A DNA stretch of 64,000 nucleotides, taken from IMG/VR virus record IMGVR_UViG_3300043410_001642, positions 41,120-105,119 of that record, one strand, 5' to 3'. The notes below the pieces were generated by a model. It ran no database searches, was not told the origin of the DNA, and saw nothing but the letters and a program-made list of their open reading frames with translations. A program made the translations under genes and the position numbers. Below, one piece after another: positions 2,685 to 55,662 of this stretch. The stretch's first letter is position 1. Every line of letters begins with the position of its first letter. This stretch comes from a virus (Duplodnaviria > Heunggongvirae > Uroviricota > Caudoviricetes).

Positions 2685-2935
2685 TGAATACGGAAATTAA
2701 AGAAGAATATACAACGATTCTTAAAAGAGTTCCGCCAGGTGATAGATGGGTATTTGCTGATGGTAATCCATCTGCTCTAATATATCCATCTCTTACTGAT
2801 GGTTTAGAAGGATGGTTTCAATCTAAAGGTGATACACAATTCTATATTGATGCTAAGAAAGGAATTGTTCAAATAGTTAAAAGAGAAGAAGTAGAAAAAC
2901 CGGTTACAAAGTATTCTTTATATGGAGAAGACTAA
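2684..2935 (+). CDS. hypothetical protein
   Basis: 83-aa ORF; TAATG overlap with upstream. Confidence 0.4.
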   Translation: MNTEIKEEYTTILKRVPPGDRWVFADGNPSALIYPSLTDGLEGWFQSKGDTQFYIDAKKGIVQIVKREEVEKPVTKYSLYGED

Positions 2936-3377
2936 GATATTAGTTATATGTAGTGGATATTTCAATCCTGTTCATAAAGGGCATATTGAATATCTGAAGA
3001 AAAGTAAAGAAGCGGGAACATACCTCTATGTAATTGTTAATAACGATTTACAAAGAGAAATGAAAGGTTCTGCACCATTTATGGAAGCTGAAGAAAGAAA
3101 GTTAATCATTGAATCACTTAAATTTGTAGATGAAGCAATGGTTGCGATTGATGATGATAGAATGGTTAATAGAAGTATTAAATGGATAATGGCCAAAATG
3201 GGTCATCAATTTGATTTAGTATATTTTGCAAATGGTGGAGACCAAAATAAAGATACAATTGGAGAAACTGAAATGTGTAACCAATTGGGTATTCAGTTAT
3301 TAGATAATTTAGGAGATAAAATTCAATCTTCATCATGGTTAATAAAAGATTCAAATGAGTTTCATAATAGGAAATAA
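2922..3377 (+). CDS. cytidylyltransferase-fold nucleotidyltransferase (HxGH family; RfaE domain II / TagD / NMNAT-like)
   Basis: N-terminal motif ICSGYFNPVHKGHIEYL...YVIVNNDL matches (T/H)xGH nucleotidyltransferase signature. Confidence 0.6.
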   Translation: MEKTKILVICSGYFNPVHKGHIEYLKKSKEAGTYLYVIVNNDLQREMKGSAPFMEAEERKLIIESLKFVDEAMVAIDDDRMVNRSIKWIMAKMGHQFDLVYFANGGDQNKDTIGETEMCNQLGIQLLDNLGDKIQSSSWLIKDSNEFHNRK

Positions 3378-3672
3378 ATGTATTGGATGTGTAGATGGTT
3401 CTTGTTTAAAAGTATGTCCAATAGATTGTATCCATGGGCCTATTTATATTGATAATATGGGTAGGGAATTGGAATCCGTTAGAAATGAAGGTGGAGTAGA
3501 AGGATTACAACTTTATATAGACCCAAAGGAATGTATTAATTGTGGTGCTTGTGTTCCGGAATGTCCAGTGGATGCTATTTATTCAACGGAAAAAGAAGCA
3601 ATTGCATTGGGAGATGAAAAATCAGTACATGATAATTATGAATTCTTCGGTATGAGTTATACGAAAAAATAA
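3355..3672 (+). CDS. 2x[4Fe-4S] ferredoxin
   Basis: Two CxxCxxCxxxCP motifs (CIGCVDGSCLKVCP; CINCGACVPECP). Confidence 0.75.
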   Translation: MSFIIGNKCIGCVDGSCLKVCPIDCIHGPIYIDNMGRELESVRNEGGVEGLQLYIDPKECINCGACVPECPVDAIYSTEKEAIALGDEKSVHDNYEFFGMSYTKK

Positions 3673-28350: not shown

Positions 28351-28408
28351 AAAGGCTTGTTTTTCTCAATTATTTTTCCTAATTTAGTGATATAAAGATT
28401 GAGAGTTA
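28351..28408 (+). promoter_or_regulatory. 58-bp promoter/leader repeat, copy B (upstream of MoxR-like ATPase gene)
   Basis: Near-identical to 26123-26180. Confidence 0.5.
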
Positions 28409-28438
28409 AACAATTTAAAAATAGAGTTATGAAAAACC

Positions 28439-31549: not shown

Positions 31550-32494
31550 ATGGCTACATTTGACAGATACAATTACCGATATGATGAATATGGTAATCGT
31601 AGAACGGAAGAACAATTACAACAATTAGAAAACGAATTCAATTTAAACGAACAATTAAAAATTAAAAAAATGATTAAAACAATCGGAGCAGGTATAGTAG
31701 GTTTTTTCCTATTAATCTTTTTATTCAAATCTTGTGAAAGAATTGATGCAGGGCATGTGGGTGTTAAAGTAAATCTTTATGGTGATAACAAAGGTGTAAG
31801 TGATGTAACTGAAGTAACTGGTATTGTGTTTTACAATCCATTTACACATAACATCTATGAATTTCCAACCTTTATTCAACACAAAGAATATACCGGAGAA
31901 AATTCATTCGTAGTAAATTCAAAAGATGGTAGTGAGTTCCATGTATCTCCTATTGTGAATTATTCAGTAAAGAGAGAGAAAGTTCCATACATCTTTGCTA
32001 AATATCGTAGAAGTTTAGAGCAAATCGAAGAAGGTTTCTTAAAGACCGCAGTGTATGATGCGTTCAGATTAGCAACTAACAAATATACGGCCGATGAATT
32101 GATTAGTAATAGAGCACAATTCGAAATCGAAGTTCGCAGATTATTAGAAGGGCAATTAATGAATGAAGGATTTATCGTTAATCAATTTACATCTAACTTA
32201 ATCTATCCCGAATCATTTAAGAACGCAATTAATGCTAAGAACAATGCAGTTCAGGCGGCATTAATGGCTGAGAATAAAGTTAAGCAGGCTGAAGCTGAAG
32301 CTAAAATTAAAGTGGCAACTGCCGAAGGTAACGCACAGGCATTACTTACTCAATCTAAAGCAGAAGCTGAAGCAAACCGAATGAAGCAGGCTACCTTAAC
32401 GGCATTGTTAATTCAACAACAATATATTGAGAAATGGAATGGAGTTTTACCACAATACGGACAAGTTCCAACATTGTTCAAAAACATCCAATAG
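31550..32494 (+). CDS. SPFH/band-7 (prohibitin/HflKC-like) domain protein
   Basis: N-terminal TM; IDAGHVGVKVNLYG core; Ala/Glu/Lys coiled coil (AENKVKQAEAEAKIKVATAEGNAQALL). Confidence 0.6.
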   Translation: MATFDRYNYRYDEYGNRRTEEQLQQLENEFNLNEQLKIKKMIKTIGAGIVGFFLLIFLFKSCERIDAGHVGVKVNLYGDNKGVSDVTEVTGIVFYNPFTHNIYEFPTFIQHKEYTGENSFVVNSKDGSEFHVSPIVNYSVKREKVPYIFAKYRRSLEQIEEGFLKTAVYDAFRLATNKYTADELISNRAQFEIEVRRLLEGQLMNEGFIVNQFTSNLIYPESFKNAINAKNNAVQAALMAENKVKQAEAEAKIKVATAEGNAQALLTQSKAEAEANRMKQATLTALLIQQQYIEKWNGVLPQYGQVPTLFKNIQ

Positions 32495-34368: not shown

Positions 34369-34723
34369 ATATTTGTTTTGGATACTTATAGAAAATAGGT
34401 TACACTACTAACGAAACCAACATAATATGGACGAAGGTGGCAGTAAAAAAAGCTCTACAAAAATTACAAAACAAAGAGACGAGGTTGATGTTATACAAAG
34501 ATATGGCATTAATGTTAGCTCTATTCTTCAATCCTTTTGGGTTCGATGCCGTTCAATTTTCCCTAATACTACTGACAGGAAGTTTATGGAAGGCGAACTT
34601 CGTATTGTATTGTATTGCGGGATTCTTTTTTGGATTCTACATTTACTTTTCCAGATTGTTAAGTAGGAAAACCTAATATCATTGTATTTATTAAAAATTA
34701 TTGTTTTACTAAAAGGTACTTAA

Positions 34724-34996
34724 ATGGAAAATGTTACCAATAGACATGGTGATGAGAGAACCATAGAACGAATCTCTCATGAAAGAATTAGAATTATGGG
34801 TAATTCTAAATTCATCAGAAAATCTTCAGATAGTGAAGGTTTAACAATGTTCGACTTTGAAGGAGGTCCTTGTTTAAATGTGGGTGGAAAAATTAAGTTT
34901 GAAAAAATGGATTGGTATATTCATGGAATCGAACAAGAAAACACAACTTACCCAGATTTCGCATCAGTTCAATTATTTGTATCACCGATTTATTAA
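34724..34996 (+). CDS. hypothetical protein
   Basis: 90-aa ORF opening the glycan island. Confidence 0.35.
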   Translation: MENVTNRHGDERTIERISHERIRIMGNSKFIRKSSDSEGLTMFDFEGGPCLNVGGKIKFEKMDWYIHGIEQENTTYPDFASVQLFVSPIY

Positions 34997-35013
34997 TCAC
35001 AATTTAATTTCAG

Positions 35014-36036
35014 ATGAGAGAGGTAGTATGTGCAGGTTGCTCATTTACCAATTTTAATACATTGGATAAAGATATGGCCTACAATGGTATAACACCCGAA
35101 GTGGATGGTGTTAAACCGATGGGATCATATCCTGAAGCAATTCATAGAAATTTTAAGAATAAGGTATATAATTTAGGAATGGCAGGTAATAACATTGCCA
35201 CATCCGTATTATCTCTTATTGCAACTGCTGATAGATTGTTGAAAGAAAAGAAGAATATATTTCTTATTCTTCAATGCACCGAATTCACAAGAAAAAGTTT
35301 TTATCTACCATCTTCTTTTCAAATACGAAAGAACATTGGAATAGATGATGCGGTTAGAAATAACAATTATCTATTTGATGAAGGCGGTAGTGGATTTTTT
35401 CAATTCGGAACATTGTCCGGAGCAAGAGATGGATTCTCTGCAATTGAATCTATAAAGAATATAGCAAAGAGTTATTCAGAACATGCTTATTCTATTGAGA
35501 GTGGATATATTGATTCCATTACTCACATCTTATTATTACAAAACTATTGTAAGGTAAATAACATTCCCTATAAAATATTTTTAAAAACGGAATCATTTAG
35601 TATTCCATTCCATCCCCTATTCAATATACCAAATGAAAAAGCGGGAATGGAAGATATATTTGATGCAATATTTGTAAGAAAGAAACTATTCAGAAAGAAT
35701 CCTTTAACATTTGTAAATTCTGACCCGTATATCAAAAACTTATTTGGTATGTTAGATTTAGATTCCTTTTGGTTCTTAGATGATGTTGATTGTAGATATG
35801 GTGGTATAACCGAATGGGTTTATGTTCGTAATCAATATAATAATGGTGATAAAACTTATATACCATTAGTTGTAGAAGATATAGACGAGCAACCTATTAA
35901 ACATACATACCAATACCCAATTGAGAGAGCAAAGGAAAAGATTAAGAATGGAACTTTTGATCCAAACGGGCATCCATCTTATTATTATTGGGATTTATTT
36001 GTTCAAAATGAAATGAGTAAATGGGGATTTCTATAA
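35014..36036 (+). CDS. hypothetical protein (distant SGNH-like paralog?)
   Basis: N-terminus VVCAGCSFTNF resembles degenerate GDSxT block of downstream paralogs. Confidence 0.35.
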   Translation: MREVVCAGCSFTNFNTLDKDMAYNGITPEVDGVKPMGSYPEAIHRNFKNKVYNLGMAGNNIATSVLSLIATADRLLKEKKNIFLILQCTEFTRKSFYLPSSFQIRKNIGIDDAVRNNNYLFDEGGSGFFQFGTLSGARDGFSAIESIKNIAKSYSEHAYSIESGYIDSITHILLLQNYCKVNNIPYKIFLKTESFSIPFHPLFNIPNEKAGMEDIFDAIFVRKKLFRKNPLTFVNSDPYIKNLFGMLDLDSFWFLDDVDCRYGGITEWVYVRNQYNNGDKTYIPLVVEDIDEQPIKHTYQYPIERAKEKIKNGTFDPNGHPSYYYWDLFVQNEMSKWGFL

Positions 36037-37166
36037 ACATATTGCCAGTATTATATGATGAAGGAACTGATGTAAAGTTTTCTCCTATAAAAGATTTCAA
36101 ACAAAGAGAATGGTTGGAAGGGAACAACTATTGGTTTAAGGAATTTGAAAAGCTAACTGGTGTAACTTTAAATTATTCTGAAACTGATACAACTCTTTTG
36201 ATATTATACAATGGACAATTAGAACCTATAATAACTGAAGGGAATTATTTCAAAGAGATTAAGAGAAAGATTGATATAGGAACATACAAAAAAGTTATAC
36301 TATATCAGAATGAAGTGAATTGGGATACATTTGAAAGATTATTAGATATAGAGGATTTCTTCTATGATATTTTTAGAAATGATAAACGATTCCTTTTTGT
36401 AAGAAATATATTTCAAAGTAGATTCAATTTTACAAAGATAAATTCTGAATTTACATTTGGTTGTTTTCCATTTCAAATACTTCATAACTTTAATGAAACG
36501 AATGATATCAATTGGGGTGTTGAAAAGAAACATTATCTATTTTCCGCTAATTGTAATGTTAAAGAAGAGAGATTACATTTCTATGAGTTTTTAGAAAAAG
36601 GAAACTATTGGGATAAATGTAATGTTTCATTCTTTTTACCATTGATGGGTATTCAGACAAAGAGATTTGTTCCATCGGAATACATAGGTAATTTGGGCAA
36701 ATTAGACTTGGATATACAATACTTGCCAAAGAAATTGAAATATGATGATGAGTTGAATGTAAAGAAGCTACCGATAAAAGATAGTTTAGAATGCTTATTT
36801 CAGATGATATTTGAAACTCGTTATCATTCACATTGTGGCATAGTATTAAGTGAGAAGTTATTCAAAGGATTTATGTATAGAACTCCTTTCATAGTATATG
36901 GACAACATGGTATATTGAAACTATTAAAAGAAAAAGGATTTAAAACTTTTGATTGGTTGATAGATGAGAGTTATGATTGGGAGATTGATAATATAAAAAG
37001 ATTAGAAATGGTTTTGAAAGAGATTGATAAATTATTAAACACTCCATTTGAAGCCATAGAACGATTGATAACACAACATCAACAGGATTTGGTTCATAAT
37101 AGATATTGGGCAGAAGAATTTGCTAAAACTGAAATTAATAAACTAAAAGAAATAATAACTAAATGA
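36021..37166 (+). CDS. glycosyltransferase, GT10 (fucosyltransferase)-like
   Basis: Paralog of 40563-41777; C-terminal FETRYHSHCGIVLSEKLFKGF...PFIVYG pattern resembling the FucT motif. Confidence 0.45.
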   Translation: MGISINILPVLYDEGTDVKFSPIKDFKQREWLEGNNYWFKEFEKLTGVTLNYSETDTTLLILYNGQLEPIITEGNYFKEIKRKIDIGTYKKVILYQNEVNWDTFERLLDIEDFFYDIFRNDKRFLFVRNIFQSRFNFTKINSEFTFGCFPFQILHNFNETNDINWGVEKKHYLFSANCNVKEERLHFYEFLEKGNYWDKCNVSFFLPLMGIQTKRFVPSEYIGNLGKLDLDIQYLPKKLKYDDELNVKKLPIKDSLECLFQMIFETRYHSHCGIVLSEKLFKGFMYRTPFIVYGQHGILKLLKEKGFKTFDWLIDESYDWEIDNIKRLEMVLKEIDKLLNTPFEAIERLITQHQQDLVHNRYWAEEFAKTEINKLKEIITK

Positions 37167-38422
37167 TAAACAAAGATACATTTTGTATTTTACCTTTTAT
37201 CCATCTATCGGTTTTCCAAGATGGTAAGGTGAAACCATGTTGTATGGCGGATTCATTTATTAAAGAAAACTATAATGATAGTGAAGGGTTTGAAGAATTC
37301 TTTCAAAATGAATCATACCAAAAATTAAGAGATGATTTAAAAAATGGAGTTAAGAATTCACTATGTGATGTTTGTTGGAAGAAAGAAGATTTAGGTGGTA
37401 GAAGTTTTAGACAAGAGAAGAATGCACACTTCAAAAAACAATATGATAAGTTTCTAAAAGATGAAGAGAGTAATCCGGAGTTAGTATTTTTGGATATACG
37501 ATTCTCTAACCAATGTAACTTTAAATGTAGAATGTGTGGTGAGAGAGATTCTACATCTTGGTATGAAGAGAGAGAAACATTTTGGAATGACGAGTGTGTA
37601 AAGCCGGTTTTAGAGAAATTGGTTAAAGGTGGAGGAGACCCAAAGGATTTATACAATTATATAAAACCATTTGATTCTAAAAAATTACACATCTTAAGAA
37701 AACAATTTACCGAACAGGAATTGAATGAATTAGAGTATGTGTATATAGCAGGTGGAGAACCATTGTATGCTAAAATGGTATGGGATTTTATAGAAAAGAT
37801 ACCACATCCAGAAAATGTAACACTCCAATTTCAGACAAACTTTTCATTGTTGGAATACAAAGATAAATCCATCTTTGAATTTACTAAAAACTTTAAACAA
37901 GTAGTCTATTCAATATCATTAGACGGATTGTTTGAAGTAGGAGAGTTTCAGAGAACTAATTTTAAAACCGATGTATTCTTAGCTAATCTTAATAGATTGA
38001 ACGAAGAGATTAAAACTAATTCAAACATTAGTTATGATTTCACCTATACTACATCATTGATAAATGTATTTAGTTTCTTTGAAACATTTGATTACTTAAT
38101 AGAGAATGGATATATAGAAGATTATTCTAACATTCGTCTTCAGATAGTTCAATGGCCTAAACATTTGGATGCAAAGAATTATCCACTATCAAATAGAATA
38201 AAGAAATATTATAGTAGAACAAATATAAAAGGTATCCATAAGAATCCTTTTTTAAAGGGAGATATTGATAACTTAATAAGGCATGTTGAACAAGGAATAG
38301 AAGGAGATTTGAATGAACATTTATTTGAATTGACACGAATGATACGATTCTCTTCTGAATACAACAATCTTACAATACCAGAGAACTTAAAAAATTTAGA
38401 TAACTTAAAAAAAATAATTTAA
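37163..38422 (+). CDS. radical SAM domain protein
   Basis: CxxxCxxC motif (FSNQCNFKCRMCGE) with additional Cys clusters; ATGA overlap with upstream. Confidence 0.55.
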   Translation: MINKDTFCILPFIHLSVFQDGKVKPCCMADSFIKENYNDSEGFEEFFQNESYQKLRDDLKNGVKNSLCDVCWKKEDLGGRSFRQEKNAHFKKQYDKFLKDEESNPELVFLDIRFSNQCNFKCRMCGERDSTSWYEERETFWNDECVKPVLEKLVKGGGDPKDLYNYIKPFDSKKLHILRKQFTEQELNELEYVYIAGGEPLYAKMVWDFIEKIPHPENVTLQFQTNFSLLEYKDKSIFEFTKNFKQVVYSISLDGLFEVGEFQRTNFKTDVFLANLNRLNEEIKTNSNISYDFTYTTSLINVFSFFETFDYLIENGYIEDYSNIRLQIVQWPKHLDAKNYPLSNRIKKYYSRTNIKGIHKNPFLKGDIDNLIRHVEQGIEGDLNEHLFELTRMIRFSSEYNNLTIPENLKNLDNLKKII

Positions 38423-38423
38423 A

Positions 38424-38837
38424 ATGGAAAGAAAGTATTTGCCAACATTAGCTGAATTAATTGATAGATTAAGCATCACTCAATTAAAAGAGGTATTCAT
38501 CACTGACCACAAAGAAGAATATTCAAAAGAGATAGCAGATATTGTGCATGATATTGATGTTATATTACAAGAAAGAGTGGATATTCAAGGAGGTGATATT
38601 ACAGGTGAAACTATTAGAGCAATCATAGTATTGGCACAAATGAATTTACACATCTGGCATAATGAATCAAATGTTAGAAATGGCAGTGAAGGTCCGAATG
38701 CATTGGCATTAACTCATGGATTGAATGGAATCCGTAATACTGCTAAGAATAGAATACAAGAAGTTGTGGGTGGTAGAAAAGATTACAAAATAGATTGTTT
38801 AGCAGCAGATTTCAAAGATTGGGAAATCAGTTGGTAA
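38424..38837 (+). CDS. hypothetical protein
   Basis: 137-aa ORF. Confidence 0.4.
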   Translation: MERKYLPTLAELIDRLSITQLKEVFITDHKEEYSKEIADIVHDIDVILQERVDIQGGDITGETIRAIIVLAQMNLHIWHNESNVRNGSEGPNALALTHGLNGIRNTAKNRIQEVVGGRKDYKIDCLAADFKDWEISW

Positions 38838-38860
38838 GATATATATCATAAAGAAGGTTT

Positions 38861-39595
38861 ATGAAAATTTTAGTTATAGGAGATAGTTGCACTGATATAT
38901 TCATCTATGGTAATGTAAATAGATTATGTCCAGAAGCACCCGTTCCAGTATTTGAACCATCAAGAACAATTACAAATGATGGTATGGCAGGTAATGTTAG
39001 AGCAAATTTGGAATCATTGGGGGCAAGAGTAGAACTTATTACCAACAAAGAACAAATCACAAAGACAAGATATGTAGATGGTAAATCTAATCAAATGTTT
39101 ATCAGAGTTGATACATTGGATAAGGTTAAATCTGCATTTGATATTAATAGAGTAGATTGGAATGTAGATGCGGTAATCGTATCAGATTATGACAAGGGAT
39201 TCTTAACTGAAGATGATATTCATCAGATAAGTAAAAAACATCCACTCACATTTATTGATACAAAGAAACCAATAAACTTACAAACATTTTCCGATTACAC
39301 TTATATCAAAATGAATGAGTGGGAATGGGAATTGTGTGAGAGAAAGGGTGCTAAATACGAAGATTGGGCAGACAAACTTATTATTACAATGAGTGAAAGA
39401 GGATGTTTATATCAGAACAAAGTGTATCCTGTAAATAGAGATATTGAGGTAAGAGATTTAAGCGGTGCAGGTGATACATTTATGGCATCATTGGTATTCA
39501 AATATATTGAAACCAAAAACTTAATAGAATCAATTAAATTTGCTAACGATTGTGCAACTAAGGTTGTGCAAAAAAGAGGAGTTACTACAATATGA
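38861..39595 (+). CDS. PfkB-family sugar kinase, HldE/RfaE domain I-like
   Basis: ILVIGDSCTDIF...PEAPVPV motif and C-terminal GAGDTF anion-hole motif. Confidence 0.65.
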   Translation: MKILVIGDSCTDIFIYGNVNRLCPEAPVPVFEPSRTITNDGMAGNVRANLESLGARVELITNKEQITKTRYVDGKSNQMFIRVDTLDKVKSAFDINRVDWNVDAVIVSDYDKGFLTEDDIHQISKKHPLTFIDTKKPINLQTFSDYTYIKMNEWEWELCERKGAKYEDWADKLIITMSERGCLYQNKVYPVNRDIEVRDLSGAGDTFMASLVFKYIETKNLIESIKFANDCATKVVQKRGVTTI

Positions 39596-40566
39596 ATGTA
39601 ATAGATTTCTTTGGGTGTAGTTTTACTGAAGCACCTAAACTTCCATACAAACCATCAGTTGATAAATTTGATATAGAATTATATTCTATGCATTGTCATG
39701 TAACGAAACCTATGAGCGGATTTTTGGAATTTGATATGGCATATAATAATTGTAATGATTATCAAATAAACAATTATGGTAAGGGAAGTTTTGGTAACTT
39801 TACTATAAAGAATGTAATATCCAATAAGGTAAAGAAATTAAATAAAGAAGATAATAATATTGCAATAGTTCAATTATCAGCCTTATTAAGAAACGAACAT
39901 AGTTGGGAATGTATTCAAGAAAAGGGGAGATATCAAAACGAAGATAAGGAAGTATTTGATATAGATTTCAATGCGGTTAAACCGGATTATATAGTAGAGG
40001 TTTCATCTATGGAAGAATATTATCAATCACATATTGATAATCTAAAATCTATACTTAGTTTATTAAAAGAAAACTATAATAGATATATTATATTTTTTGG
40101 ATGGGATGTATCAACTAAAGAATTTGCGAAAGTGGCAAATGAAGTTGGATTGTATGATGAGATATTAAACTACATATATGATTATCCATTATCCAAAAGA
40201 GAATACTTTGAGAATAATGATTCGTTCAACGATTTCATAAAAAGATGTAGAGGTAAGAGAGGAGGATTGTTGGAATATTCAGCCAATAAACTTCCTGAAG
40301 AAATTAGATATGCCGGTGAGAGAGACCATCATCCATCTTATTTTTCAAACAAAGTATTCTATGAAGAAGTAATAAAACCATTTTTAACTACTGATATAAA
40401 ATTAGATAAGGAATACTTCAATGAAGATGTAGTTGTTCAGTTTGAAGAATTTTTAAAACAATTGTGTGCAAAGAAATTAAAAGGTGGTGATTGGGAAGAA
40501 TATAACTATTCACAACTACAAATGGAATCAATTGGATATGTTAGAAAAACAATATTAAAGAAATGA
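39592..40566 (+). CDS. hypothetical protein (distant SGNH-like paralog?)
   Basis: N-terminus FFGCSFTEAP; ATGA overlap. Confidence 0.35.
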   Translation: MNVIDFFGCSFTEAPKLPYKPSVDKFDIELYSMHCHVTKPMSGFLEFDMAYNNCNDYQINNYGKGSFGNFTIKNVISNKVKKLNKEDNNIAIVQLSALLRNEHSWECIQEKGRYQNEDKEVFDIDFNAVKPDYIVEVSSMEEYYQSHIDNLKSILSLLKENYNRYIIFFGWDVSTKEFAKVANEVGLYDEILNYIYDYPLSKREYFENNDSFNDFIKRCRGKRGGLLEYSANKLPEEIRYAGERDHHPSYFSNKVFYEEVIKPFLTTDIKLDKEYFNEDVVVQFEEFLKQLCAKKLKGGDWEEYNYSQLQMESIGYVRKTILKK

Positions 40567-41777
40567 AAAATTTAGTTTTTTATAGATACTTTTCTAATCA
40601 TAAAAGAGAAGTTGAGTTTGAAGATTTTAATATAGATTCGGAATACTTTGCTGAAAGGGAATTATTCTCATTAAGAAAGAATTATTTTTTCACAACACTA
40701 AGTGATTACAATATTGTTACAAACGAATCTGATGTAAATGGATTAAATGATTTCACTCTATTGATTGGGTTTGACCCTTCATTCAAAGAAATGTTTGAAT
40801 TGATTGAGAGAGAAGATTTTAATAACATAATAGACCAGAATATATCAAAGATAAAAAAGATTATATTTTGGGAAATGGATACAGGATGGACAAACTATTC
40901 TTACAATGAATATCAATCTTTATCAGTTCCATTTAAACAATGGTTCAGTGATAAGAACATAGAGATTGAAATATTCACAAATGCTATGTCATTTAAGTAT
41001 GATGAAGAAGTTAAGTATTGGCCTTCACATAACTCAATGGTAATAGAAAGATTAGTTAGAGAATTGGAAAAGGCTAACTATTATGATATGGAGTTTGATA
41101 GAACTAAATACTTCTATGCAACTTCCAATTCATTGAATGTAGATAGATTACACTTCTACAAATATATGCATGATAATAAGATTTGGGAAAAGAATAACAT
41201 TGCTTTATTCTCTACATTTAGAAATAGTGAGCATGATGGAGGATTCCCTTACTCATATGTTAGAGAGATAAGAGGTAATTGTGGATTGGATGATATTGGA
41301 GATGATTACATATTCTATCCAAAACCATTCAAAGATGAAAACTTTCAAACTATGAATTATTCGGTATTATCAAATATTCAGAAGTTAAGAGAATGTTATT
41401 TTGAAATGGTGTTTGAAACGATATACGAAGCAAATGAAAATATGATAATCCAAACATCGGAAAAGACATGGAAACCTTTGGCTCAAAAGATACCATTTAT
41501 TACATTCTCATATGGTGATGTATTGAAAGAGTTTAAGAAATTAGGATTTAAAACATTTGATTTCATATTTGATGAGAGTTATGACAATGAAAGAAATACT
41601 CATAAAAGATTGTATAAAGTATTAGAGCAAATCGGAAAGGTTTGTAATATGAGTTTAGATGAGTTAAAGGAATATGAAAGTGAAATAAAAGCGGTAACGG
41701 ATTACAATTTTAATAACTTAAAAGAGGTCTTTTCTCTATGGAGAAATAGACTAAGAGATGCAGTTTATTATGAGTAA
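40563..41777 (+). CDS. glycosyltransferase, GT10 (alpha-1,3-fucosyltransferase)-like
   Basis: FETIYEANENMIIQTSEKTWKPLAQKIPFITFSYG resembles FucT FENS...ITEKLWK...VPVV motif; paralog of 36021-37166. Confidence 0.5.
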   Translation: MKNLVFYRYFSNHKREVEFEDFNIDSEYFAERELFSLRKNYFFTTLSDYNIVTNESDVNGLNDFTLLIGFDPSFKEMFELIEREDFNNIIDQNISKIKKIIFWEMDTGWTNYSYNEYQSLSVPFKQWFSDKNIEIEIFTNAMSFKYDEEVKYWPSHNSMVIERLVRELEKANYYDMEFDRTKYFYATSNSLNVDRLHFYKYMHDNKIWEKNNIALFSTFRNSEHDGGFPYSYVREIRGNCGLDDIGDDYIFYPKPFKDENFQTMNYSVLSNIQKLRECYFEMVFETIYEANENMIIQTSEKTWKPLAQKIPFITFSYGDVLKEFKKLGFKTFDFIFDESYDNERNTHKRLYKVLEQIGKVCNMSLDELKEYESEIKAVTDYNFNNLKEVFSLWRNRLRDAVYYE

Positions 41778-42477
41778 GATGATTTTTTTAGGTGATAGTT
41801 TCACTTGGGGACAGGGTCTTTATTTCTATAAATGGAGAGATGAAGGTAGAAAATTTGAAGGTGAATTGGGTGGTATGTATGATTCTCATTCAAACTATGT
41901 AACTCCTGAAGATGTTATATATAAAGATAATCTATCATACACAGGATTGGTATCAAGTTATTACAATACATCTCAATTCAAACGAACAAGAAACGGAGGA
42001 AGTAATACTGATATAGTGTTGGATATGATTCCTATGATAGATAGAGAAAACAATGATATAGATAAATTGGTATTTCAATTTACTACTATATCAAGATACT
42101 TCTTCAGAGATTTGAATATGTCTCATATTGAAATTGTATATAAAGATGGAGAGAATAGGTATATTGATGATATTATTCAAGAAAGAGCTAGAAATTTCTT
42201 TAACTATATAGATGGGATATTAACATATTTTTCAAACCTGTATAAGTTTGAATATTGTTATTTAGATTGGTTGGGAGATTTTTATCAATTCAACCCCGAT
42301 AAGTTTGTAACATATAATGTAAATGAAAAGGAATATAAACATTTCCATCCGTTCTTAGAACAATATAAAATAGATATGTTTGTGGATAATAGAGCGATAA
42401 TAGATTTACATCTAAACAAAGAGGGGCAACAAATTTTATCAAGAGGAATAATAAATCATTTTAATGGCAAGGGATAA
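41758..42477 (+). CDS. SGNH/GDSL hydrolase-like protein
   Basis: Block I FLGDSFTWGQG. Confidence 0.5.
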   Translation: MQFIMSKMIFLGDSFTWGQGLYFYKWRDEGRKFEGELGGMYDSHSNYVTPEDVIYKDNLSYTGLVSSYYNTSQFKRTRNGGSNTDIVLDMIPMIDRENNDIDKLVFQFTTISRYFFRDLNMSHIEIVYKDGENRYIDDIIQERARNFFNYIDGILTYFSNLYKFEYCYLDWLGDFYQFNPDKFVTYNVNEKEYKHFHPFLEQYKIDMFVDNRAIIDLHLNKEGQQILSRGIINHFNGKG

Positions 42478-43261
42478 ATACATACTATTTTTAGGTGATA
42501 GTTTCACTTGGGGGCAGGGATTATATCTACCATCTTGGGTTGAAAGAAAACCAGAAGTTCTCCATCAGTTTTTAGAAACTCATAAAGGAAGTGCATATGA
42601 AATTGCTATGCAATGGGTTGAGCAAGAACCTCATTTTGATTTGGAAGATGCTAAAATAAAAGAAAAGTTATCCTTTACCGGAATAGTGGGGCATAGATTA
42701 GATAGAAAGGTTATTAAAAAGGCAAATAATGGAGGTTCTATAACTACAAATTTAGTTCAATTGAATAATAAAGTATTCCCATATTATATAAATGATGATA
42801 TGGAAATAGGGTATATTGATTTGTATGATAGATTCCTACCAAAAGATTGTATTATAGTTTTCCAATTTTCATCAGTAGGGAGAGAAGATTTTGATAATTT
42901 AACTGAAGAAGAAATGAATATGGTATTTGAAACATCTAAATCTTTCAAAGATATTATATATGATAGAATAAAAGGATTGTTTGACAAAGTTGATTCTAAA
43001 TTAATGGAAATTGAGAAAAAGTATGGATTCAAATATTATTATTTAGATTGGTTAGGAGATTTCTATGATTTTAAGCCAGAGAAATTCATAACTATAAATG
43101 GTCATCATTATTTCAATACGATGACTGCTACAAATTACATAAAAGTTCCATATAAGGATAAGTTTGTATGCGATGGACATATAAATGAATATGGTAATAT
43201 GATAATTGCTAAAAACATCTTAAAAAAAATAAATGAAGATAATTTGGATAATTCCAAATAA
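42464..43261 (+). CDS. SGNH/GDSL hydrolase-like protein
   Basis: Block I FLGDSFTWGQG; paralog of upstream gene (shared YYLDWLGDFY motif). Confidence 0.5.
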   Translation: MARDKYILFLGDSFTWGQGLYLPSWVERKPEVLHQFLETHKGSAYEIAMQWVEQEPHFDLEDAKIKEKLSFTGIVGHRLDRKVIKKANNGGSITTNLVQLNNKVFPYYINDDMEIGYIDLYDRFLPKDCIIVFQFSSVGREDFDNLTEEEMNMVFETSKSFKDIIYDRIKGLFDKVDSKLMEIEKKYGFKYYYLDWLGDFYDFKPEKFITINGHHYFNTMTATNYIKVPYKDKFVCDGHINEYGNMIIAKNILKKINEDNLDNSK

Positions 43262-43712: not shown

Positions 43713-44204
43713 ATGAGAAAGGAAAAGATTTTTTTGTATTTGGATGATGTAAGAACTCCAACTGATGAAGGATGGCAAGTAGTTAGAAATTATGATGAGT
43801 TTGTAGCACATATTAGATTAAACGGAATAGAAAACTATGAAGTAATTTCTTTGGATCATGATTTAGGAGAAGCAGCAATGGTTGAGTATTATACTAATGT
43901 AAAACCAAACTATGAATTGGATTACAATAGAATAGACGAAAAGACTGGGTATGATTGTGCTAAGTTTTTAGTTGCAGAAGCAATGACTAAGAACATACCA
44001 CTACCTGCAATCTATGTTCATTCTGCTAATCCAATTGGTTCAGCTAATATGATGGGATATATTAACAACTATTATAGAAATCATAAAATGCCAGAAGTAT
44101 GCACAAAGGTAAATATTGAACATACTTATGCACCCGAAGTTGTATTAACACCGGAGGAAAGAAATGCTAGATGGAATATTATGAAAGATGCTCGTAAAAA
44201 GTAA
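43713..44204 (+). CDS. hypothetical protein
   Basis: 163-aa ORF. Confidence 0.4.
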   Translation: MRKEKIFLYLDDVRTPTDEGWQVVRNYDEFVAHIRLNGIENYEVISLDHDLGEAAMVEYYTNVKPNYELDYNRIDEKTGYDCAKFLVAEAMTKNIPLPAIYVHSANPIGSANMMGYINNYYRNHKMPEVCTKVNIEHTYAPEVVLTPEERNARWNIMKDARKK

Positions 44205-45069: not shown

Positions 45070-45471
45070 ATGGCGTATTCAGATAAGGTATTAGACCATT
45101 ATAGTAATCCCAAAAATGTTGGAACTCTGGATAAGAGTAAAGATAATGTAGGAACTGGATTGGTAGGAGCACCTGAATGTGGAGATGTTATGAGGTTACA
45201 AATAGAAGTAAACGACGGTATAATAACCGATGCCAAATTCAAAACATTTGGTTGTGGTTCAGCTATCGCCGCTTCTTCTCTTGCAACCGAATGGTTAAAG
45301 GGTAAGAGTGTGGAGGAAGCCATCACAATTGATAATATGGATTTGGTAGAAGAACTAAACCTACCACCTGTTAAGATTCATTGTTCAGTATTAGCGGAAG
45401 ATGCTATAAAATCTGCTATTAATGATTATAGAATTAAAAACGGAATGGAGGAATTGGTTTTTGAAAACTAA
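45070..45471 (+). CDS. iscU: Fe-S cluster assembly scaffold IscU
   Basis: Near full-length match to IscU signature (MAYSDKVLDHYSNPKNVG...GAPECGDVMRLQI...FKTFGCGSAIASS...PPVKIHCSVLAEDAIKSAI); three conserved Cys and LPPVK motif. Confidence 0.85.
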   Translation: MAYSDKVLDHYSNPKNVGTLDKSKDNVGTGLVGAPECGDVMRLQIEVNDGIITDAKFKTFGCGSAIAASSLATEWLKGKSVEEAITIDNMDLVEELNLPPVKIHCSVLAEDAIKSAINDYRIKNGMEELVFEN

Positions 45472-45478
45472 ACCCTAA

Positions 45479-46114
45479 ATGAAAAAATTGTTAATGGTGG
45501 CTACCTTATTGTGTGTAATGGTAGTAGTAAAGGCACAAGATGTAGTTGAATTAAAACATATCAACTACACAACACACTTCAGTAAATCAAAGAAATATCC
45601 TGTAATGGTAGAGTGGTGGGAAACCAAAATAAAAATTGGTTGTGAAACACCATTACCTAGAAAGGATAACTTCAAACCAGACCCATTATTACCAAACGAA
45701 ACTAACATTGGTCAGGATTATGTAAATAGTGGATATGATAGAGGTCACTTAATGCCGGCAAAATCAAACCAATGCCAAACTACTGCGGTGCAAGATGAAT
45801 GTTTCTATTATTCTAATATGGCTGCACAAACACATAGATTAAATGCAGGTGATTGGAAATCATTAGAAACTTTAACACGAGAATTAGCAGTTAAAGAAGA
45901 TTCGGTTCATGTTTGGGCTGGTAATGTTGGTGAGATTAAAAAGATAGGTACAACATCAGTTCCAAAACAATGTTGGAAAGTTGTTCATATTAAGAAAACA
46001 AATGAGTGGATGTTCTTCTTATTTGAAAATGATTTATCAGCACCGGATGGTATTAATAACAATAAGGTGTTAAGAGAAGATATAGAAAAATTAACAGGTT
46101 TTAAATTTAATTAA
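45479..46114 (+). CDS. secreted DNA/RNA non-specific endonuclease (Serratia NucA / EndoG family)
   Basis: Signal peptide; active-site motif GYDRGHLMPA. Confidence 0.7.
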   Translation: MKKLLMVATLLCVMVVVKAQDVVELKHINYTTHFSKSKKYPVMVEWWETKIKIGCETPLPRKDNFKPDPLLPNETNIGQDYVNSGYDRGHLMPAKSNQCQTTAVQDECFYYSNMAAQTHRLNAGDWKSLETLTRELAVKEDSVHVWAGNVGEIKKIGTTSVPKQCWKVVHIKKTNEWMFFLFENDLSAPDGINNNKVLREDIEKLTGFKFN

Positions 46115-46115
46115 A

Positions 46116-46439
46116 ATGATTACCGTCACTGAAACGGCTAGTAAAAAAATACAAACTCTTGTAGAAGAAAGTGGTTATACTACTCCTTATTTAAGAGTTG
46201 CAGTTAAAGGAGGAGGTTGTAGTGGATTATCATACGACCTCTCCTTTGATACTGATATGAAACCATCTGATATGTTATTTGAAGACAAAGATGTAAAAGT
46301 ATTAGTAGATAATAAATCCCTTCTTTATTTATTTGGAACTGAATTAGATTATTCTGATGGCTTAAATGGTAAAGGATTTGAGTTTAAGAATCCAAATGCA
46401 TCCCGAACTTGTGGATGTGGAGAAAGCTTTGCGGTATAA
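46116..46439 (+). CDS. iscA: Fe-S cluster A-type carrier (IscA/ErpA/HesB family)
   Basis: ITVTETASKKI...VKGGGCSGLSYDL...C-terminal TCGCGESF, the three conserved Cys of A-type carriers. Confidence 0.8.
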   Translation: MITVTETASKKIQTLVEESGYTTPYLRVAVKGGGCSGLSYDLSFDTDMKPSDMLFEDKDVKVLVDNKSLLYLFGTELDYSDGLNGKGFEFKNPNASRTCGCGESFAV

Positions 46440-47305
46440 TGAAACAATTTGACACAATTTATATAAACGGAAGTAGTTTAAGTTGTGGAGGTGGATTGGA
46501 ACCTGATTCTCCACCATACAAACATTATGTTTATACTGAAAATATTAAACAATGGTCTAATAGTAAAAGTGTATCATATGGTAATGTATTGGGTGATATG
46601 TTAGGAAAAGAAGTTATCAATGAATCCAAACAGGGCGGAGGATTAGATAGACTTATCAGAAAAACATATGATTTTATATTAAACACTCCAATTGATAAAT
46701 TAGAAAAAATATTATTTCTTTTTGATATACCCCTACAACCTACTAGAATAGAAATATATTCTAATCAATATGAAGATTATTTAGTGTGTTCAGTTGCATT
46801 AGATTCTAATGGTAATCAATCGACCGTTGAGGTTAGAAGTGAAGGGAAATGGTGGGATTCTAAATTATCAATATCAAGAGGGTTTTTCAGACCAGAATTG
46901 AGAATACCTTATGTTGAGTATGTAAAACACGATAAGATATTAAATGATTACATAACTGGATACTACAATAAAGAAATAGAAATAAGAAGAATGATGAGAG
47001 AACTTACAATGTTCTATTCATTTATGGATTCATTTAAGTTGAATTATGTTAGAGATAGCACTGATAATTTGTTTGCAGCATCTTCTAATATAAATGATGA
47101 GAAACTAAAAATGGATTACTTAAAAAGAATGGAAGAGCATGCAAGTTTTAATCCTAATGTAATAGATTGTCAATCTATATGGGGATTATCCCAAAAAATG
47201 AAATGGACTATTGCCGATGAAACTCCTATAAATGATGCTCACTTAGGATATTATGGAAATAAAAAATACGCCGAATATCTCTTTGAAAAAATTAAATATT
47301 TATAG
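46439..47305 (+). CDS. hypothetical protein (distant SGNH-like paralog?)
   Basis: ATG at 46439 (MKQFDTIYINGSSLSCGGG) preferred over track TTG 46409; ATGA... overlap with iscA stop. Confidence 0.4.
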   Translation: MKQFDTIYINGSSLSCGGGLEPDSPPYKHYVYTENIKQWSNSKSVSYGNVLGDMLGKEVINESKQGGGLDRLIRKTYDFILNTPIDKLEKILFLFDIPLQPTRIEIYSNQYEDYLVCSVALDSNGNQSTVEVRSEGKWWDSKLSISRGFFRPELRIPYVEYVKHDKILNDYITGYYNKEIEIRRMMRELTMFYSFMDSFKLNYVRDSTDNLFAASSNINDEKLKMDYLKRMEEHASFNPNVIDCQSIWGLSQKMKWTIADETPINDAHLGYYGNKKYAEYLFEKIKYL

Positions 47306-55207: not shown

Positions 55208-55279
55208 CGCGGGGTAGAGCAGTGGTAGCTTGGTGGGCTCATAACCCATAGGTCGGTGGTTCGAATCCATCCTCCGCAA
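55208..55279 (+). tRNA. tRNA-fMet (CAT), initiator-like
   Basis: C1xA72 unpaired acceptor end, three consecutive G-C pairs in anticodon stem, loop CTCATAA, T-arm GGTGGTTCGAATCCATC. Confidence 0.8.
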
Positions 55280-55284
55280 CTAAA

Positions 55285-55340
55285 AAAATATTACAAATAA
55301 TTAGGAAATGTGAAAATCATTTCGTATATTTGTAAAACAA
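55285..55340 (+). promoter_or_regulatory. promoter-like direct repeat copy 2
   Basis: AAATATTACAAATAATTAGGAAATGTGAAAATCATTTCGTATATTTGTAAAACAA. Confidence 0.5.
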
Positions 55341-55445
55341 AATGAGATAGTGGTTGAAGCCAACATCTAATAAAACCGAATGTGTGACTACTTCCTCCAT
55401 ATGCAGGGGGTTAAATAAAGCCGGATATCACTAAAACATTTTGTA

Positions 55446-55498
55446 AAAAATATTACAAATAATTAGGAAATGTGAAAATGTTTTCGTATATTTGTAAA
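55446..55498 (+). promoter_or_regulatory. promoter-like direct repeat copy 3
   Basis: Same repeat with 3 substitutions (…AAAATGTTTTCGTATATTTGTAAAG). Confidence 0.5.
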
Positions 55499-55608
55499 GT
55501 TGACCAGAAGTAGGAAGGCAATATAGTCTAAACAATGCTACTCTCCCACTATTGGAGAGATGAGTATAAAAAGGATATCCGAAAATGTTCAACAAAAAAA
55601 AGATAAAA

Positions 55609-55662
55609 AATATTTAAAGAAATATTTGGAAATGTGAAAATCATTTCGTATCTTTACGAAGT
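55609..55662 (+). promoter_or_regulatory. promoter-like direct repeat copy 4 (diverged -7 region)
   Basis: AAATATTTGGAAATGTGAAAATCATTTCGTATCTTTACGAAG directly upstream of ORF-free 1.5 kb segment. Confidence 0.4.

What the first reader, a model, noticed from the sequence alone, without database searches (positions are those of the whole stretch)
34724..43261. Glycan-modification island with paralog expansions: two GT10-like glycosyltransferases, a radical SAM enzyme, an HldE-like sugar kinase and several SGNH/GDSL-like proteins
Ten translationally coupled genes (ATGA/overlap junctions) include two clear paralogs with fucosyltransferase-like C-terminal motifs (36021, 40563) and two near-identical GDSL proteins with FLGDSFTWGQG (41758, 42464). 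At least three more ORFs share the same N-terminal G(C/S)S(F/L)T architecture (35014, 39592; also 46439 elsewhere). A radical SAM protein and a PfkB/HldE-type kinase with the PEAPVPV motif are also present. Phages use such modules to glycosylate their DNA (hypermodified bases), their virions, or to remodel host surface polysaccharide. The combination with a radical SAM enzyme and duplicated esterase/acyl-transferase-like genes is not a described pathway.
Basis: partly seen in the sequence, partly recalled or inferred. Interest (0 to 1): 0.7.

Follow-up and report, generated by a model that had tools for sequence, protein, structure and literature searches.

The report
Phage operon for a tailored glycan
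An uncultured large aquatic phage carries a conserved ten-gene operon of sugar-handling enzymes, most from families with no name and no relative in any cultured phage, that probably builds and decorates a sugar chain on a target that is still unknown.

Summary
The ten ORFs exist and form one tight + strand block: 6 of 9 junctions overlap. The block is syntenic in six independent metagenome contigs.

- **Profile searches:** these name only two genes, an N-terminal-twitch radical SAM enzyme (NF033640) and an HldA/HldE-like PfkB kinase.
- **Structure prediction:** this resolves two more families. 36021 and 40563 are GT-B glycosyltransferases of an unclassified family, not GT10 members. 41758 and 42464 are SGNH-fold enzymes closest to carbohydrate esterases. 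They are 30% identical, not near-identical.
- **Profile-profile comparison:** this ties 35014, 39592 and 46409 to the same SGNH-like superfamily.
- **Distribution:** the GT, radical SAM and SGNH-like families recur together, often in multiple copies, in many uncultured viral contigs. There they sit among nucleotide-sugar dehydratases, epimerases and carbamoyltransferases. That fixes the glycan context.
- **Gene 38424:** it encodes an extraordinarily conserved 137-aa protein of unknown function.

All the enzymes are soluble. No flippase, polymerase or priming transferase is present, and no dCMP hydroxymethylase was found. I favour glycosylation of phage proteins. Host envelope remodelling and DNA modification are not excluded.

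Verdict: a new variant of the known "phage glycan island" kind, of moderate interest.

The parts
34437..34676 (+). Small probable 2-TM membrane protein (79 aa, GTG start), the left-hand neighbour of the block
   Evidence: This frame, not the overlapping 34427 ATG frame, is the one conserved with the more distant relative L010. It has the only TM-like segment in the region (KD19 1.67). Membership of the operon is inferred.
34724..34996 (+). Conserved 90-aa protein of unknown function, the first gene of the block
   Evidence: No Pfam or PHROG hit. It is 74-79% identical and in the same position in L001/L003/L010. Found only in this phage lineage.
35014..36036 (+). SGNH-like protein A (340 aa, G-C-S block I)
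   Evidence: hhalign against independent family alignments: 98.1% to the 46409 family, 95.7% to 39592, 94.2% to 41758. Ser10 and His320 are invariant in 12/12 family members. No Pfam hit.
36021..37166 (+). GT-B fold glycosyltransferase 1 (381 aa), unclassified family
37163..38422 (+). Radical SAM enzyme with an N-terminal twitch (auxiliary Fe-S) domain
   Evidence: NCBIfam NF033640 at 278 bits (cut-off 170). Pfam Radical_SAM covers residues 113-289 and SPASM residues 8-72. CX3CX2C at 118-125; C26, C27, C68 and C71 are invariant.
38424..38837 (+). Ultra-conserved 137-aa protein of unknown function
   Evidence: More than 8000 clusters, and the best 120 are all >=80% identical. 54 invariant columns. 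No family, PDB or cultured-phage hit. It is 64-78% identical in viral loci whose GTs are only 27-43% identical.
38861..39595 (+). HldA/HldE-domain-I-like PfkB sugar(-phosphate) kinase, short form (244 aa)
   Evidence: Pfam PfkB at 63.4 bits. rfaE_dom_I at 128 bits, below the 345 cut-off. Best solved relative is heptose 7-phosphate kinase 4e84. It is 40-49% identical to the 'carbohydrate kinase' of cyanomyovirus sugar clusters.
39592..40566 (+). SGNH-like protein B (324 aa, G-C-S block I)
   Evidence: hhalign 95.7% to the 35014 family over the N-terminal 93 residues. Ser10 and His247 are invariant in 4/4. It is cut in two in the near-identical relative L008.
40563..41777 (+). GT-B glycosyltransferase 2 (404 aa), paralog of 36021
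   Evidence: BLASTP E=6e-26 over the C-terminal (donor-side) halves only; the N-terminal halves are not alignable. It aligns in family A1.
41758..42477 (+). SGNH-fold protein C (239 aa, GDS)
   Evidence: Paralog of 42464, with hhalign 100%. Ser14, Asn79-Gly-Gly, Asp216 and His218 are invariant in 15/15.
42464..43261 (+). SGNH-fold protein D (265 aa, GDS)
46409..47305 (+). SGNH-like protein E, outside the block (likely start at ATG 46439)
   Evidence: hhalign 98.1% to the 35014 family and 97.7% to the 41758 family. Ser23 and His278 are invariant in 9/9. A homolog sits in the same place in L010.
2922..3377 (+). rfaE-domain-II-like nucleotidyltransferase, the likely partner of the kinase (distant in the genome)
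   Evidence: TIGR00125 at 58.5 bits (cut-off 27.7). rfaE_dom_II at 55 bits, below its cut-off. GYFNPVHKGH motif. In cyanophages the kinase homolog sits beside such a gene. Its link to the island is inferred.
3355..3672 (+). 4Fe-4S ferredoxin, a possible reductant for the radical SAM enzyme
   Evidence: FdxA-type hits. Its role is inferred.
45070..46439 (+). IscU (45070-45471) and IscA (46116-46439) Fe-S assembly proteins, with an NS endonuclease between them
   Evidence: NifU_N at 3.6e-50 and Fe-S_biosyn at 9e-20. The same genes lie next to the island in L010 and L091. That they support the radical SAM enzyme is inferred.

Best explanation
The block is a phage-encoded, cytoplasmic machine for assembling and tailoring a glycan.

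Proposed flow:
- **Sugar activation.** The HldA-like kinase (38861), with the rfaE-II-like nucleotidyltransferase elsewhere in the genome (2922), activates a sugar phosphate to a nucleotide sugar. A heptose-type sugar is the closest analogy.
- **Transfer.** The two GT-B transferases share a donor-binding C-terminal half but have unrelated acceptor-side N-terminal halves. They would add sugars at two successive or different positions.
- **Radical SAM tailoring.** The N-terminal-twitch radical SAM enzyme performs a radical modification of a sugar residue, such as oxidation or epimerisation. It would be supplied by the phage's own ferredoxin and IscU/IscA.
- **Acyl tailoring.** The four to five SGNH-fold enzymes keep their Ser and His. 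They would add or remove O-acyl groups.
- **Unknown step.** The ultra-conserved 137-aa protein performs a step I cannot name.

What is shown: the folds and family memberships, the conserved catalytic residues, the synteny, and the co-occurrence with nucleotide-sugar genes in other viruses.

What is inferred: the order of the steps, the identity of the sugar, and the chemistry of the radical SAM and SGNH steps.

The acceptor is not established. I rank phage (virion) proteins first. I put about 0.75 on the pathway-level reading and about 0.45 on that reading with the phage-protein acceptor.
For: Glycan context:
- GT-B fold and SGNH carbohydrate-esterase-like fold.
- PfkB/HldA kinase and N_Twi_rSAM.
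- In the 80 best IMG/VR loci fetched with the GT family, 42 also carry N-twitch radical SAM genes and 44 carry SGNH-like genes.
- Of 142 neighbouring ORFs there, 29 are NDP-sugar dehydratases or epimerases, 10 are RmlC-type epimerases and 8 are carbamoyltransferases. Split TPP enzymes, GT7 and methyltransferases also occur.
- GT relatives occur fused to a DegT aminotransferase (P0081), to a UDP-glucose dehydrogenase and to a dTDP-glucose dehydratase.

Cytoplasmic and self-contained:
- No island enzyme has a TM segment or signal-like N-terminus.
- The catalytic GDS sits at residues 11-13.

Phage-intrinsic acceptor:
- Gene order is fixed across relatives whose island proteins are about 37-88% identical. 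Meanwhile a heme oxygenase/bilin reductase cassette comes and goes inside the block.
- The same GT family occurs in giant viruses of eukaryotes. Examples are an NCLDV-like contig next to UDP-glucose dehydrogenase, and Mimivirus LCMiAC02 at E=1.3e-13 and Bodo saltans virus. Bacterial LPS is not an available target there.
Against: - No acceptor is identified and no structural gene is linked to the island.
- The closest analogy for the kinase, ADP-heptose synthesis, is classically an LPS-core pathway.
- The kinase and the nucleotidyltransferase both score below the equivalog cut-offs. No GmhA or GmhB was seen in the window. So the sugar is unknown.
- Bacterial homologs of the radical SAM enzyme lie in heterogeneous contexts: ACP/ketosynthase/GT2 in one case, dioxygenase/ABC/methyltransferase in another. 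Its chemistry therefore cannot be read from context.
- Only 64 kb of a genome of at least 141 kb was seen.
Confidence: 0.45

Rival explanations
1. Host envelope remodelling. The enzymes act at the cytoplasmic face on host LPS-core, O-unit or capsule intermediates. The infected cell's surface changes, which gives superinfection exclusion or avoids adsorption of progeny to debris.
For: - The kinase and nucleotidyltransferase resemble the two halves of HldE, an LPS-core heptose enzyme.
- Homologous kinases sit in cyanomyovirus clusters annotated as LPS or capsule genes.
- This is the published interpretation for pelagimyophage GT, rfaE and radical SAM cassettes (PMC7029224).
Against: - No priming phosphoglycosyltransferase, flippase, polymerase, ligase or GtrABC-type membrane component is in the island.
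- Cytoplasmic SGNH enzymes are unusual for surface-glycan O-acetylation. That step is normally periplasmic and coupled to a membrane acyltransferase (established knowledge).
- The GT family also occurs in viruses of eukaryotes.
- The block is conserved, not hypervariable, within this lineage.
Confidence: 0.27
2. DNA hypermodification. The transferases glycosylate a modified base in phage DNA, and the other enzymes tailor the attached sugar.
For: - All the enzymes are cytoplasmic.
- Multi-sugar DNA glycans made by phage GTs are reported (Pyle et al. 2024). I know this paper only from the reference list of PMC12619734 and did not read it.
Against: - hhalign of the GT family against T4 BGT gives 0.3% probability.
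- No dCMP or dUMP hydroxymethylase-like sequence is found in the window, in six related loci, or in the ORFs of the phage loci held.
- No Thymidylat_synt appears among the window's listed Pfam families.
- The neighbours in other phages look like polysaccharide-type sugar pathways.
Confidence: 0.1
3. A free or lipid-linked glycoconjugate metabolite, such as a glycolipid or small glycoside, is made during infection rather than a modification of a macromolecule.
Against: The island has no carrier protein, ketosynthase, exporter or lipid-handling gene. The viral neighbourhoods are dominated by nucleotide-sugar enzymes and transferases.
Confidence: 0.08
4. A modified peptide. The 90-aa product of 34724 is a precursor or carrier that the twitch radical SAM enzyme and the transferases modify, as in a glycosylated RiPP.
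For: SPASM and twitch radical SAM enzymes often modify peptides (PMC9012708). A small conserved ORF opens the operon.
Against: The 34724 family is confined to this lineage. The radical SAM, GT and SGNH triad is widespread without it. There is no protease or exporter. At 90 aa with no recognisable leader/core pattern, it is atypical.
Confidence: 0.05

Closest known systems
Carbohydrate ('LPS-like') gene clusters of T4-like cyanomyoviruses (S-SM2, P-TIM68, P-SSM2) and the host-recognition-cluster GT/rfaE/radical SAM cassettes of pelagimyophages
   Same: These are large aquatic phages with many tightly packed sugar genes. The kinase is 40-49% identical to the cyanophage 'carbohydrate kinase', which sits beside an rfaE-II-like nucleotidyltransferase. 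GTs, rfaE and radical SAM cassettes are noted in pelagimyophages.
   Different: The two GTs and gene 38424 have no tblastn hit in 50,697 cultured-phage records. The radical SAM gene has only 20-24% identical hits there, in Vibrio phages. The SGNH-like genes were not searched there. This lineage is not T4-like by the markers seen, and its host is probably Bacteroidota. Here the block is conserved rather than hypervariable.
Virus-encoded virion glycosylation machineries: giant-virus fibril and capsid glycans, and mycobacteriophage capsid/tail glycosylation
   Same: Both have soluble virus-encoded GTs together with sugar-tailoring genes. GT-family relatives occur in Mimiviridae-like genomes, some fused to nucleotide-sugar enzymes.
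   Different: No glycosylated virion protein is known for this lineage. The similarity is at family and fold level only. What I state about those systems rests on my own knowledge, plus the citation of Freeman et al. 2023 in PMC12619734.
T4 alpha- and beta-glucosyltransferases (DNA glucosylation)
   Different: Identity is 7%. hhalign probability is 0.3%. No hydroxymethylase was found.
GT10 alpha-1,3-fucosyltransferases
ADP-heptose pathway enzymes HldA/HldE
   Same: The N-terminal PEAPVPV lid segment and the C-terminal GAGD motif align to B. cenocepacia HldA 4e84. A separate rfaE-II-like transferase is encoded.
   Different: The protein is 244 aa against about 315. It scores 128 bits against an equivalog cut-off of 345. 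No GmhA or GmhB was seen in the window.
BtrN, a twitch radical SAM dehydrogenase acting on an aminocyclitol
   Same: A radical SAM core plus a one-cluster twitch domain acting on a sugar-like substrate (PMC9012708).
   Different: Here the twitch domain is N-terminal (residues 8-72). There is no detectable sequence relative in the PDB. The reaction is unknown.
CE2/CE3 SGNH carbohydrate acetylesterases
   Different: There is no sequence-level hit in Pfam, NCBIfam (42464 only) or the PDB. Block V is D-x-H, not D-x-x-H. The proteins are cytoplasmic and have long helical insertions.

Membership tests
CAZy GT10 fucosyltransferase | Sequence match to the Glyco_transf_10 profile | tested here: not met
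   No Pfam hit for 36021 or 40563 at E<=1. No NCBIfam hit.
CAZy GT10 fucosyltransferase | GT-B fold with GT10 enzymes as the nearest structures | tested here: not met
CAZy GT10 fucosyltransferase | GDP-fucose as the donor | not testable with these tools
   Needs an enzyme assay.
GT-B fold glycosyltransferases (superfamily) | Two Rossmann-like domains, with conserved acidic and basic donor-binding residues in the C-terminal domain | tested here: met
SGNH/GDSL hydrolases | SGNH alpha/beta/alpha fold | tested here: met
SGNH/GDSL hydrolases | Block I: Gly-x-Ser nucleophile near the N-terminus | tested here: met
   The Ser is invariant within each of the five families, at 12/12, 4/4, 9/9, 15/15 and 6/6.
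SGNH/GDSL hydrolases | Block III: Gly/Asn oxyanion residues | tested here: met
   N-G-G is invariant in the 41758 and 42464 families. It is less clear in 35014, 39592 and 46409.
SGNH/GDSL hydrolases | Block V: Asp-x-x-His | tested here: inconclusive
   The His is invariant in all five families. But the Asp lies two residues before the His (D-x-H), not three, and it is Asn in 35014. The top structural matches (CE2) are reported to work with a Ser-His dyad (own knowledge).
SGNH/GDSL hydrolases | Sequence match to Lipase_GDSL profiles | tested here: not met
   No Pfam hit for any of the five. No NCBIfam hit for the four scanned; 41758 was not scanned. No PDB hit with the 41758/42464 family profile. 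JGI names two homologs 'lysophospholipase L1-like esterase'.
Radical SAM, N-terminal twitch subfamily (NF033640) | CX3CX2C cluster motif and a score above the curated cut-offs | tested here: met
   C118, C122 and C125. Pfam 32.7 bits against 29.5. NF033640 278 bits against 170.
Radical SAM, N-terminal twitch subfamily (NF033640) | Cys-rich auxiliary-cluster domain placed N-terminal to the core | tested here: met
   SPASM profile at residues 8-72. C26, C27, C68 and C71 are invariant in 7 relatives.
HldE domain I / HldA heptose-7-phosphate kinase | PfkB fold signature (GAGD anion hole) and the HldA-type N-terminal segment | tested here: met
   Pfam PfkB at 63.4 bits. Aligns to 4e84 over residues 2-60 and 170-244, including SGAGDT.
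HldE domain I / HldA heptose-7-phosphate kinase | Equivalog-level score and full length | tested here: not met
   TIGR02198 at 128 bits against a cut-off of 345; 244 aa against a 315-position profile.
T4-type DNA glucosyltransferase system | A hydroxymethyl-pyrimidine synthase encoded together with the transferase | tested here: not met
   tblastn and phmmer with T4 gp42 find nothing in the window, in six related loci, or in the ORFs of the phage loci held. The rest of the genome was not seen.
Phage glycan ('LPS-like') islands of large aquatic phages | A cluster of transferases and sugar-activation genes in a large aquatic phage genome, with homologs in described clusters | tested here: met
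   Kinase homologs lie inside the S-SM2, P-TIM68 and P-SSM2 clusters. Pelagimyophage clusters are described in PMC7029224.

The most novel reading that the evidence does not exclude
Three families form a virus-specific glycosylation system that has never been studied: the unclassified GT-B family, the N-terminal-twitch radical SAM enzymes and the cytoplasmic SGNH-like enzymes. They recur together, often in 2-7 copies each, across many uncultured viral contigs. In this system, radical SAM chemistry would tailor sugars after or during transfer. The ultra-conserved 137-aa protein would be a new enzyme or an obligatory cofactor protein. The product would be an unusual glycan that coats the virions of abundant large aquatic phages.
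Probability: 0.25. Interest if true: 0.8.

Novelty: new variant of a known kind. Interest (0 to 1): 0.55.

Why it matters
Large aquatic phages devote tens of kilobases to sugar genes, and no one has shown what those genes do.

This block is a compact, conserved and therefore tractable version of a widespread module: ten soluble proteins.

- **If the product decorates virions**, it would extend virus-made glycans from giant viruses and mycobacteriophages to abundant marine and freshwater phages. That would bear on host recognition, grazing, aggregation and antibody-like defences.
- **The families themselves are open questions.** The radical SAM and SGNH families would add new sugar-tailoring chemistry. 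The 137-aa protein is among the most conserved unnamed proteins I saw in these searches.

Tried and rejected
Searches that found nothing or nothing useful:
- Megablast of the island against cultured phages: no match.
- tblastn of the GT and of 38424 against cultured phages: no match.
- tblastn of the radical SAM gene: only 20-24% identity, to Vibrio schizoT4 phages.
- PDB sequence searches with the GT, 38424 and SGNH profiles and with the radical SAM protein: nothing significant.
- Promoter and terminator scan: 79 promoter-like sites against 76.6 expected, and no terminators, so uninformative.
- Literature on DUF4254: nothing useful.

Ideas tested and dropped:
- My by-eye idea that upstream ORF 33811 is a sulfotransferase found no support.
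- Fused relatives of 38424 gave only weak DUF4254, methyltransferase or HNH hits.
- Bacterial neighbourhoods of the radical SAM homologs are too heterogeneous to assign a reaction.
- T4 gp42, gp56 and BGT searches in the lineage gave only noise. That includes a repeated weak BGT match to the N-terminus of 38424 (E 0.2-1.4), which I treat as chance.

- The AFDB fold library was unavailable.
- Attempts to walk beyond the window failed: one returned only a 3-kb contig and the other had no record.

Full report
**What is there**

The window is about 30% G+C, with genes almost all on the + strand. Between 34724 and 43261 lie ten ORFs. Their junctions are overlaps of 16, 4, 4, 4, 20 and 14 nt and gaps of 17, 1 and 23 nt. 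Three junctions are ATGA. No terminator-like site lies inside the block, and the promoter scan is at background.

The island has no megablast match among 50,697 cultured-phage records. The product of 42464 is 100% identical to a JGI protein reported on a 141-kb contig.

The same ten genes occur in the same order on contigs from six different samples:
- ENA ERZ4224772, ERZ4224604 and ERZ4229229
- JGI 3300047560, 3300013126 and 3300032280

The last of these is a 293-kb contig.

Identity to the window ranges widely across the block:

| Gene | Identity to relatives |
|---|---|
| Kinase (38861) | 83-88% |
| 38424 | 82-83% |
| 34724 | 74-79% |
| Radical SAM (37163) | 63-68% |
| 39592 | 44-47% |
| 42464 | 37-43% |

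In three relatives, a heme oxygenase plus bilin reductase cassette is inserted between the 39592 and 40563 homologs. The rest of the block is undisturbed.

**Gene by gene**

Pfam, PHROGs and NCBIfam name only two products.

*The radical SAM enzyme (37163).* It passes NF033640, 'twitch domain-containing radical SAM protein', at 278 bits against a cut-off of 170. The SPASM/twitch profile lies at residues 8-72, ahead of the core at 113-289. The CX3CX2C motif is at 118-125, and C26, C27, C68 and C71 are invariant.

*The kinase (38861).* It is a PfkB kinase whose best solved relative is the heptose 7-phosphate kinase HldA (4e84). The alignment covers the PEAPVPV segment and the GAGD motif. But it is short, at 244 aa, and scores below the rfaE-domain-I equivalog cut-off (128 against 345 bits).

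*The two transferases (36021 and 40563).*
- They are paralogs only over their C-terminal halves (E=6e-26).
- A 49-sequence alignment gave an AF2 model with pLDDT 87.8.
- The scores are too close to assign a CAZy family.
- There is no GT10 profile hit. The family profile does not align to T4 BGT (hhalign 0.3%).
- In GT-B enzymes the C-terminal domain binds the donor and the N-terminal domain the acceptor (established knowledge). I therefore infer a related donor and different acceptors for the two paralogs.

*The SGNH-fold pair (41758 and 42464).*
- They share the FLGDSFTWGQGLY motif but are only 30% identical.
- G-D-S, N-G-G and D-x-H are invariant.

*The three other SGNH-like proteins (35014, 39592, 46409).*
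- BLAST does not connect them to each other or to the pair.
- Profile-profile comparison does, using alignments built from non-overlapping sets of homologs:

| Pair compared | hhalign probability |
|---|---|
| 35014 and 46409 | 98.1% |
| 46409 and 41758 | 97.7% |
| 35014 and 39592 | 95.7% |
| 35014 and 41758 | 94.2% |

- In every one of the five families the block-I Ser and the C-terminal His are invariant. So these look like active enzymes rather than decayed copies.

*Localisation.* None of the island's enzymes has a TM segment or a signal-like N-terminus. The only membrane candidate is the small ORF at 34437.

**Wider distribution**

The GT family has 115 relatives in the word-indexed protein search, none with a Pfam GT domain. 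It has more than 534 relatives in IMG/VR. The best IMG/VR relative is only about 30% identical, so the window's own lineage was not among those returned.

In the 80 best viral loci:
- 42 carry N-twitch radical SAM genes, up to five copies each
- 44 carry SGNH-like genes, up to seven copies each
- 12 carry a 38424 homolog

The other genes in those loci fix the biochemical context. Of 142 neighbouring ORFs:
- 29 are NDP-sugar 4,6-dehydratase, epimerase or reductase proteins
- 10 are RmlC-type 3,5-epimerases
- 8-10 are split transketolase/E1-type TPP enzymes
- 8 are NodU/CmcH-type carbamoyltransferases

2OG oxygenases, GT7 transferases and methyltransferases also occur.

GT relatives are sometimes fused to sugar enzymes. 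They also occur in giant-virus-like genomes.

Bacterial relatives of the radical SAM enzyme are about 30% identical and are found in Flavobacteriales, Bdellovibrionota, Saprospiraceae and Paenibacillus. They lie in mixed contexts and carry no 38424 homolog. Two contigs binned as Haliscomenobacter carry the whole triad plus a carbamoyltransferase.

**The unexplained gene (38424)**

Gene 38424 returned the search's maximum of 8000 candidates, all significant. The best 120 are all at least 80% identical. The family has 559 representatives at 50% identity and 54 invariant columns among 22 sequences.

It is 64-78% identical in viral loci where the GT is 27-43% identical.

It has only a sub-threshold DUF4254 match (17.5 bits against 27). 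It has no PHROG, NCBIfam or PDB sequence hit, and no hit in cultured phages.

**Elsewhere in the window**

- An rfaE-domain-II-like nucleotidyltransferase lies at 2922-3377, followed by a ferredoxin.
- IscU and IscA lie at 45070 and 46116 and recur next to the island in relatives.
- Together with the kinase, the first of these reproduces the split-HldE pair seen in cyanomyovirus sugar clusters.
- The Fe-S genes plausibly serve a multi-cluster radical SAM enzyme. This is inference.
- A SusC-like TonB-dependent receptor at 5068-7674 points to a Bacteroidota host.

**How it most likely works**

Shown:
- two GT-B transferases
- one twitch radical SAM enzyme
- one HldA-like kinase
- four to five SGNH-fold enzymes with intact Ser and His
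- all soluble, co-transcribable and co-inherited
- belonging to families that live among nucleotide-sugar genes in other viruses

Inferred sequence of events:
1. The kinase and the nucleotidyltransferase activate a sugar.
2. The two GTs transfer sugar to two acceptor positions.
3. The radical SAM enzyme oxidises or epimerises a residue. BtrN is the precedent for twitch enzymes on sugar-like substrates (PMC9012708).
4. The SGNH enzymes add or remove O-acyl groups.

The island lacks a priming transferase, flippase, polymerase or ligase. So it cannot make a surface polysaccharide on its own.

The acceptor is open. I rank the candidates as follows.
- **Phage proteins, first.** The block is fixed within the lineage, the enzymes are cytoplasmic, and the GT family is shared with viruses of eukaryotes.
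- **Host LPS or capsule intermediates, second.** This is the usual published reading for such genes.
- **DNA, third.** No hydroxymethylase was found in the sequence available.

**Comparison and novelty**

The kind is known: sugar-gene islands in large aquatic phages, and virus-encoded glycosylation more generally.

What is new is the composition:
- an unclassified GT-B family
- radical SAM enzymes with an N-terminal twitch domain
- a cytoplasmic SGNH-like superfamily in several copies
- an ultra-conserved unnamed protein

The GTs and 38424 have no relative in cultured phages. The radical SAM gene has only distant ones. The SGNH-like genes were not searched there. A recently described lineage of large Flavobacteriia-associated phages lists four core glycosyltransferase groups (PMC12619734). 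I did not test whether this window belongs to that lineage.

I rate the finding a new variant of a known kind, with moderate interest.

Noticed in passing
window 5068-7674: An 868-aa phage-encoded TonB-dependent receptor with SusC-like architecture (CarboxypepD_reg, Plug, beta-barrel). It is an unusual phage gene and a hint that the host is a member of the Bacteroidota.
   Followed up: partly
window 55208-63516: An array of 23 tRNA genes with 22 different anticodons, on the + strand.
   Followed up: no
window 3355-3672, 45070-45471, 46116-46439: The phage encodes its own ferredoxin, IscU and IscA. IscU and IscA also flank the island in relatives L010 and L091.
   Followed up: partly
window 43713-44204: A cREC_REC (cyclic-phosphate processing receiver) domain protein is a conserved right-hand neighbour of the island in L001, L002, L008, L010 and L091. 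Its function here is unknown.
   Followed up: no
L001 14450-15696; L002 5891-7137; L091 12110-13356: Relatives carry a heme oxygenase plus ferredoxin-dependent bilin reductase cassette inserted inside the island, between the 39592 and 40563 homologs. The window lacks it.
   Followed up: partly
L008 7151-8103: In a near-identical relative, the 39592 homolog is split into 252 aa and 34 aa pieces. The region is also 22 nt out of register with the window. This is either a pseudogene or an assembly error.
   Followed up: no
L128 and L142 (contigs binned as Haliscomenobacter sp.): Arrays of 5-6 N-twitch radical SAM genes are interleaved with 3-4 GT-family genes, an SGNH-like gene and a carbamoyltransferase. 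This is either a bacterial counterpart of the viral module or phage DNA mis-binned into the MAG.
   Followed up: partly
L004/L005 10001-11293: A GT-family relative sits next to a UDP-glucose dehydrogenase on a 224-kb contig that also encodes RNA polymerase Rpb6, UvdE and a lipase. The contig looks like a giant virus of eukaryotes.
   Followed up: no
window 34427-34676: Two overlapping 79-aa ORFs lie in different frames, and gene callers disagree between contigs. The 34437 GTG frame, a 2-TM protein, is the one conserved in the more distant relative L010.
   Followed up: partly
window 28399-29646: A MoxR/CobS-like AAA ATPase. Its best cultured-phage relatives are Microcystis phage Mel-JY01 (56% identity) and an uncultured 484-kb phage. 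This is one of only two links to a cultured phage found for this lineage; the other is the kinase's 40-49% identity to cyanomyovirus kinases.
   Followed up: no
window 31550-32494 and 45479-46114: A Band 7/SPFH membrane-scaffold protein lies upstream of the island. A DNA/RNA non-specific endonuclease with a signal-like N-terminus lies between IscU and IscA.
   Followed up: no
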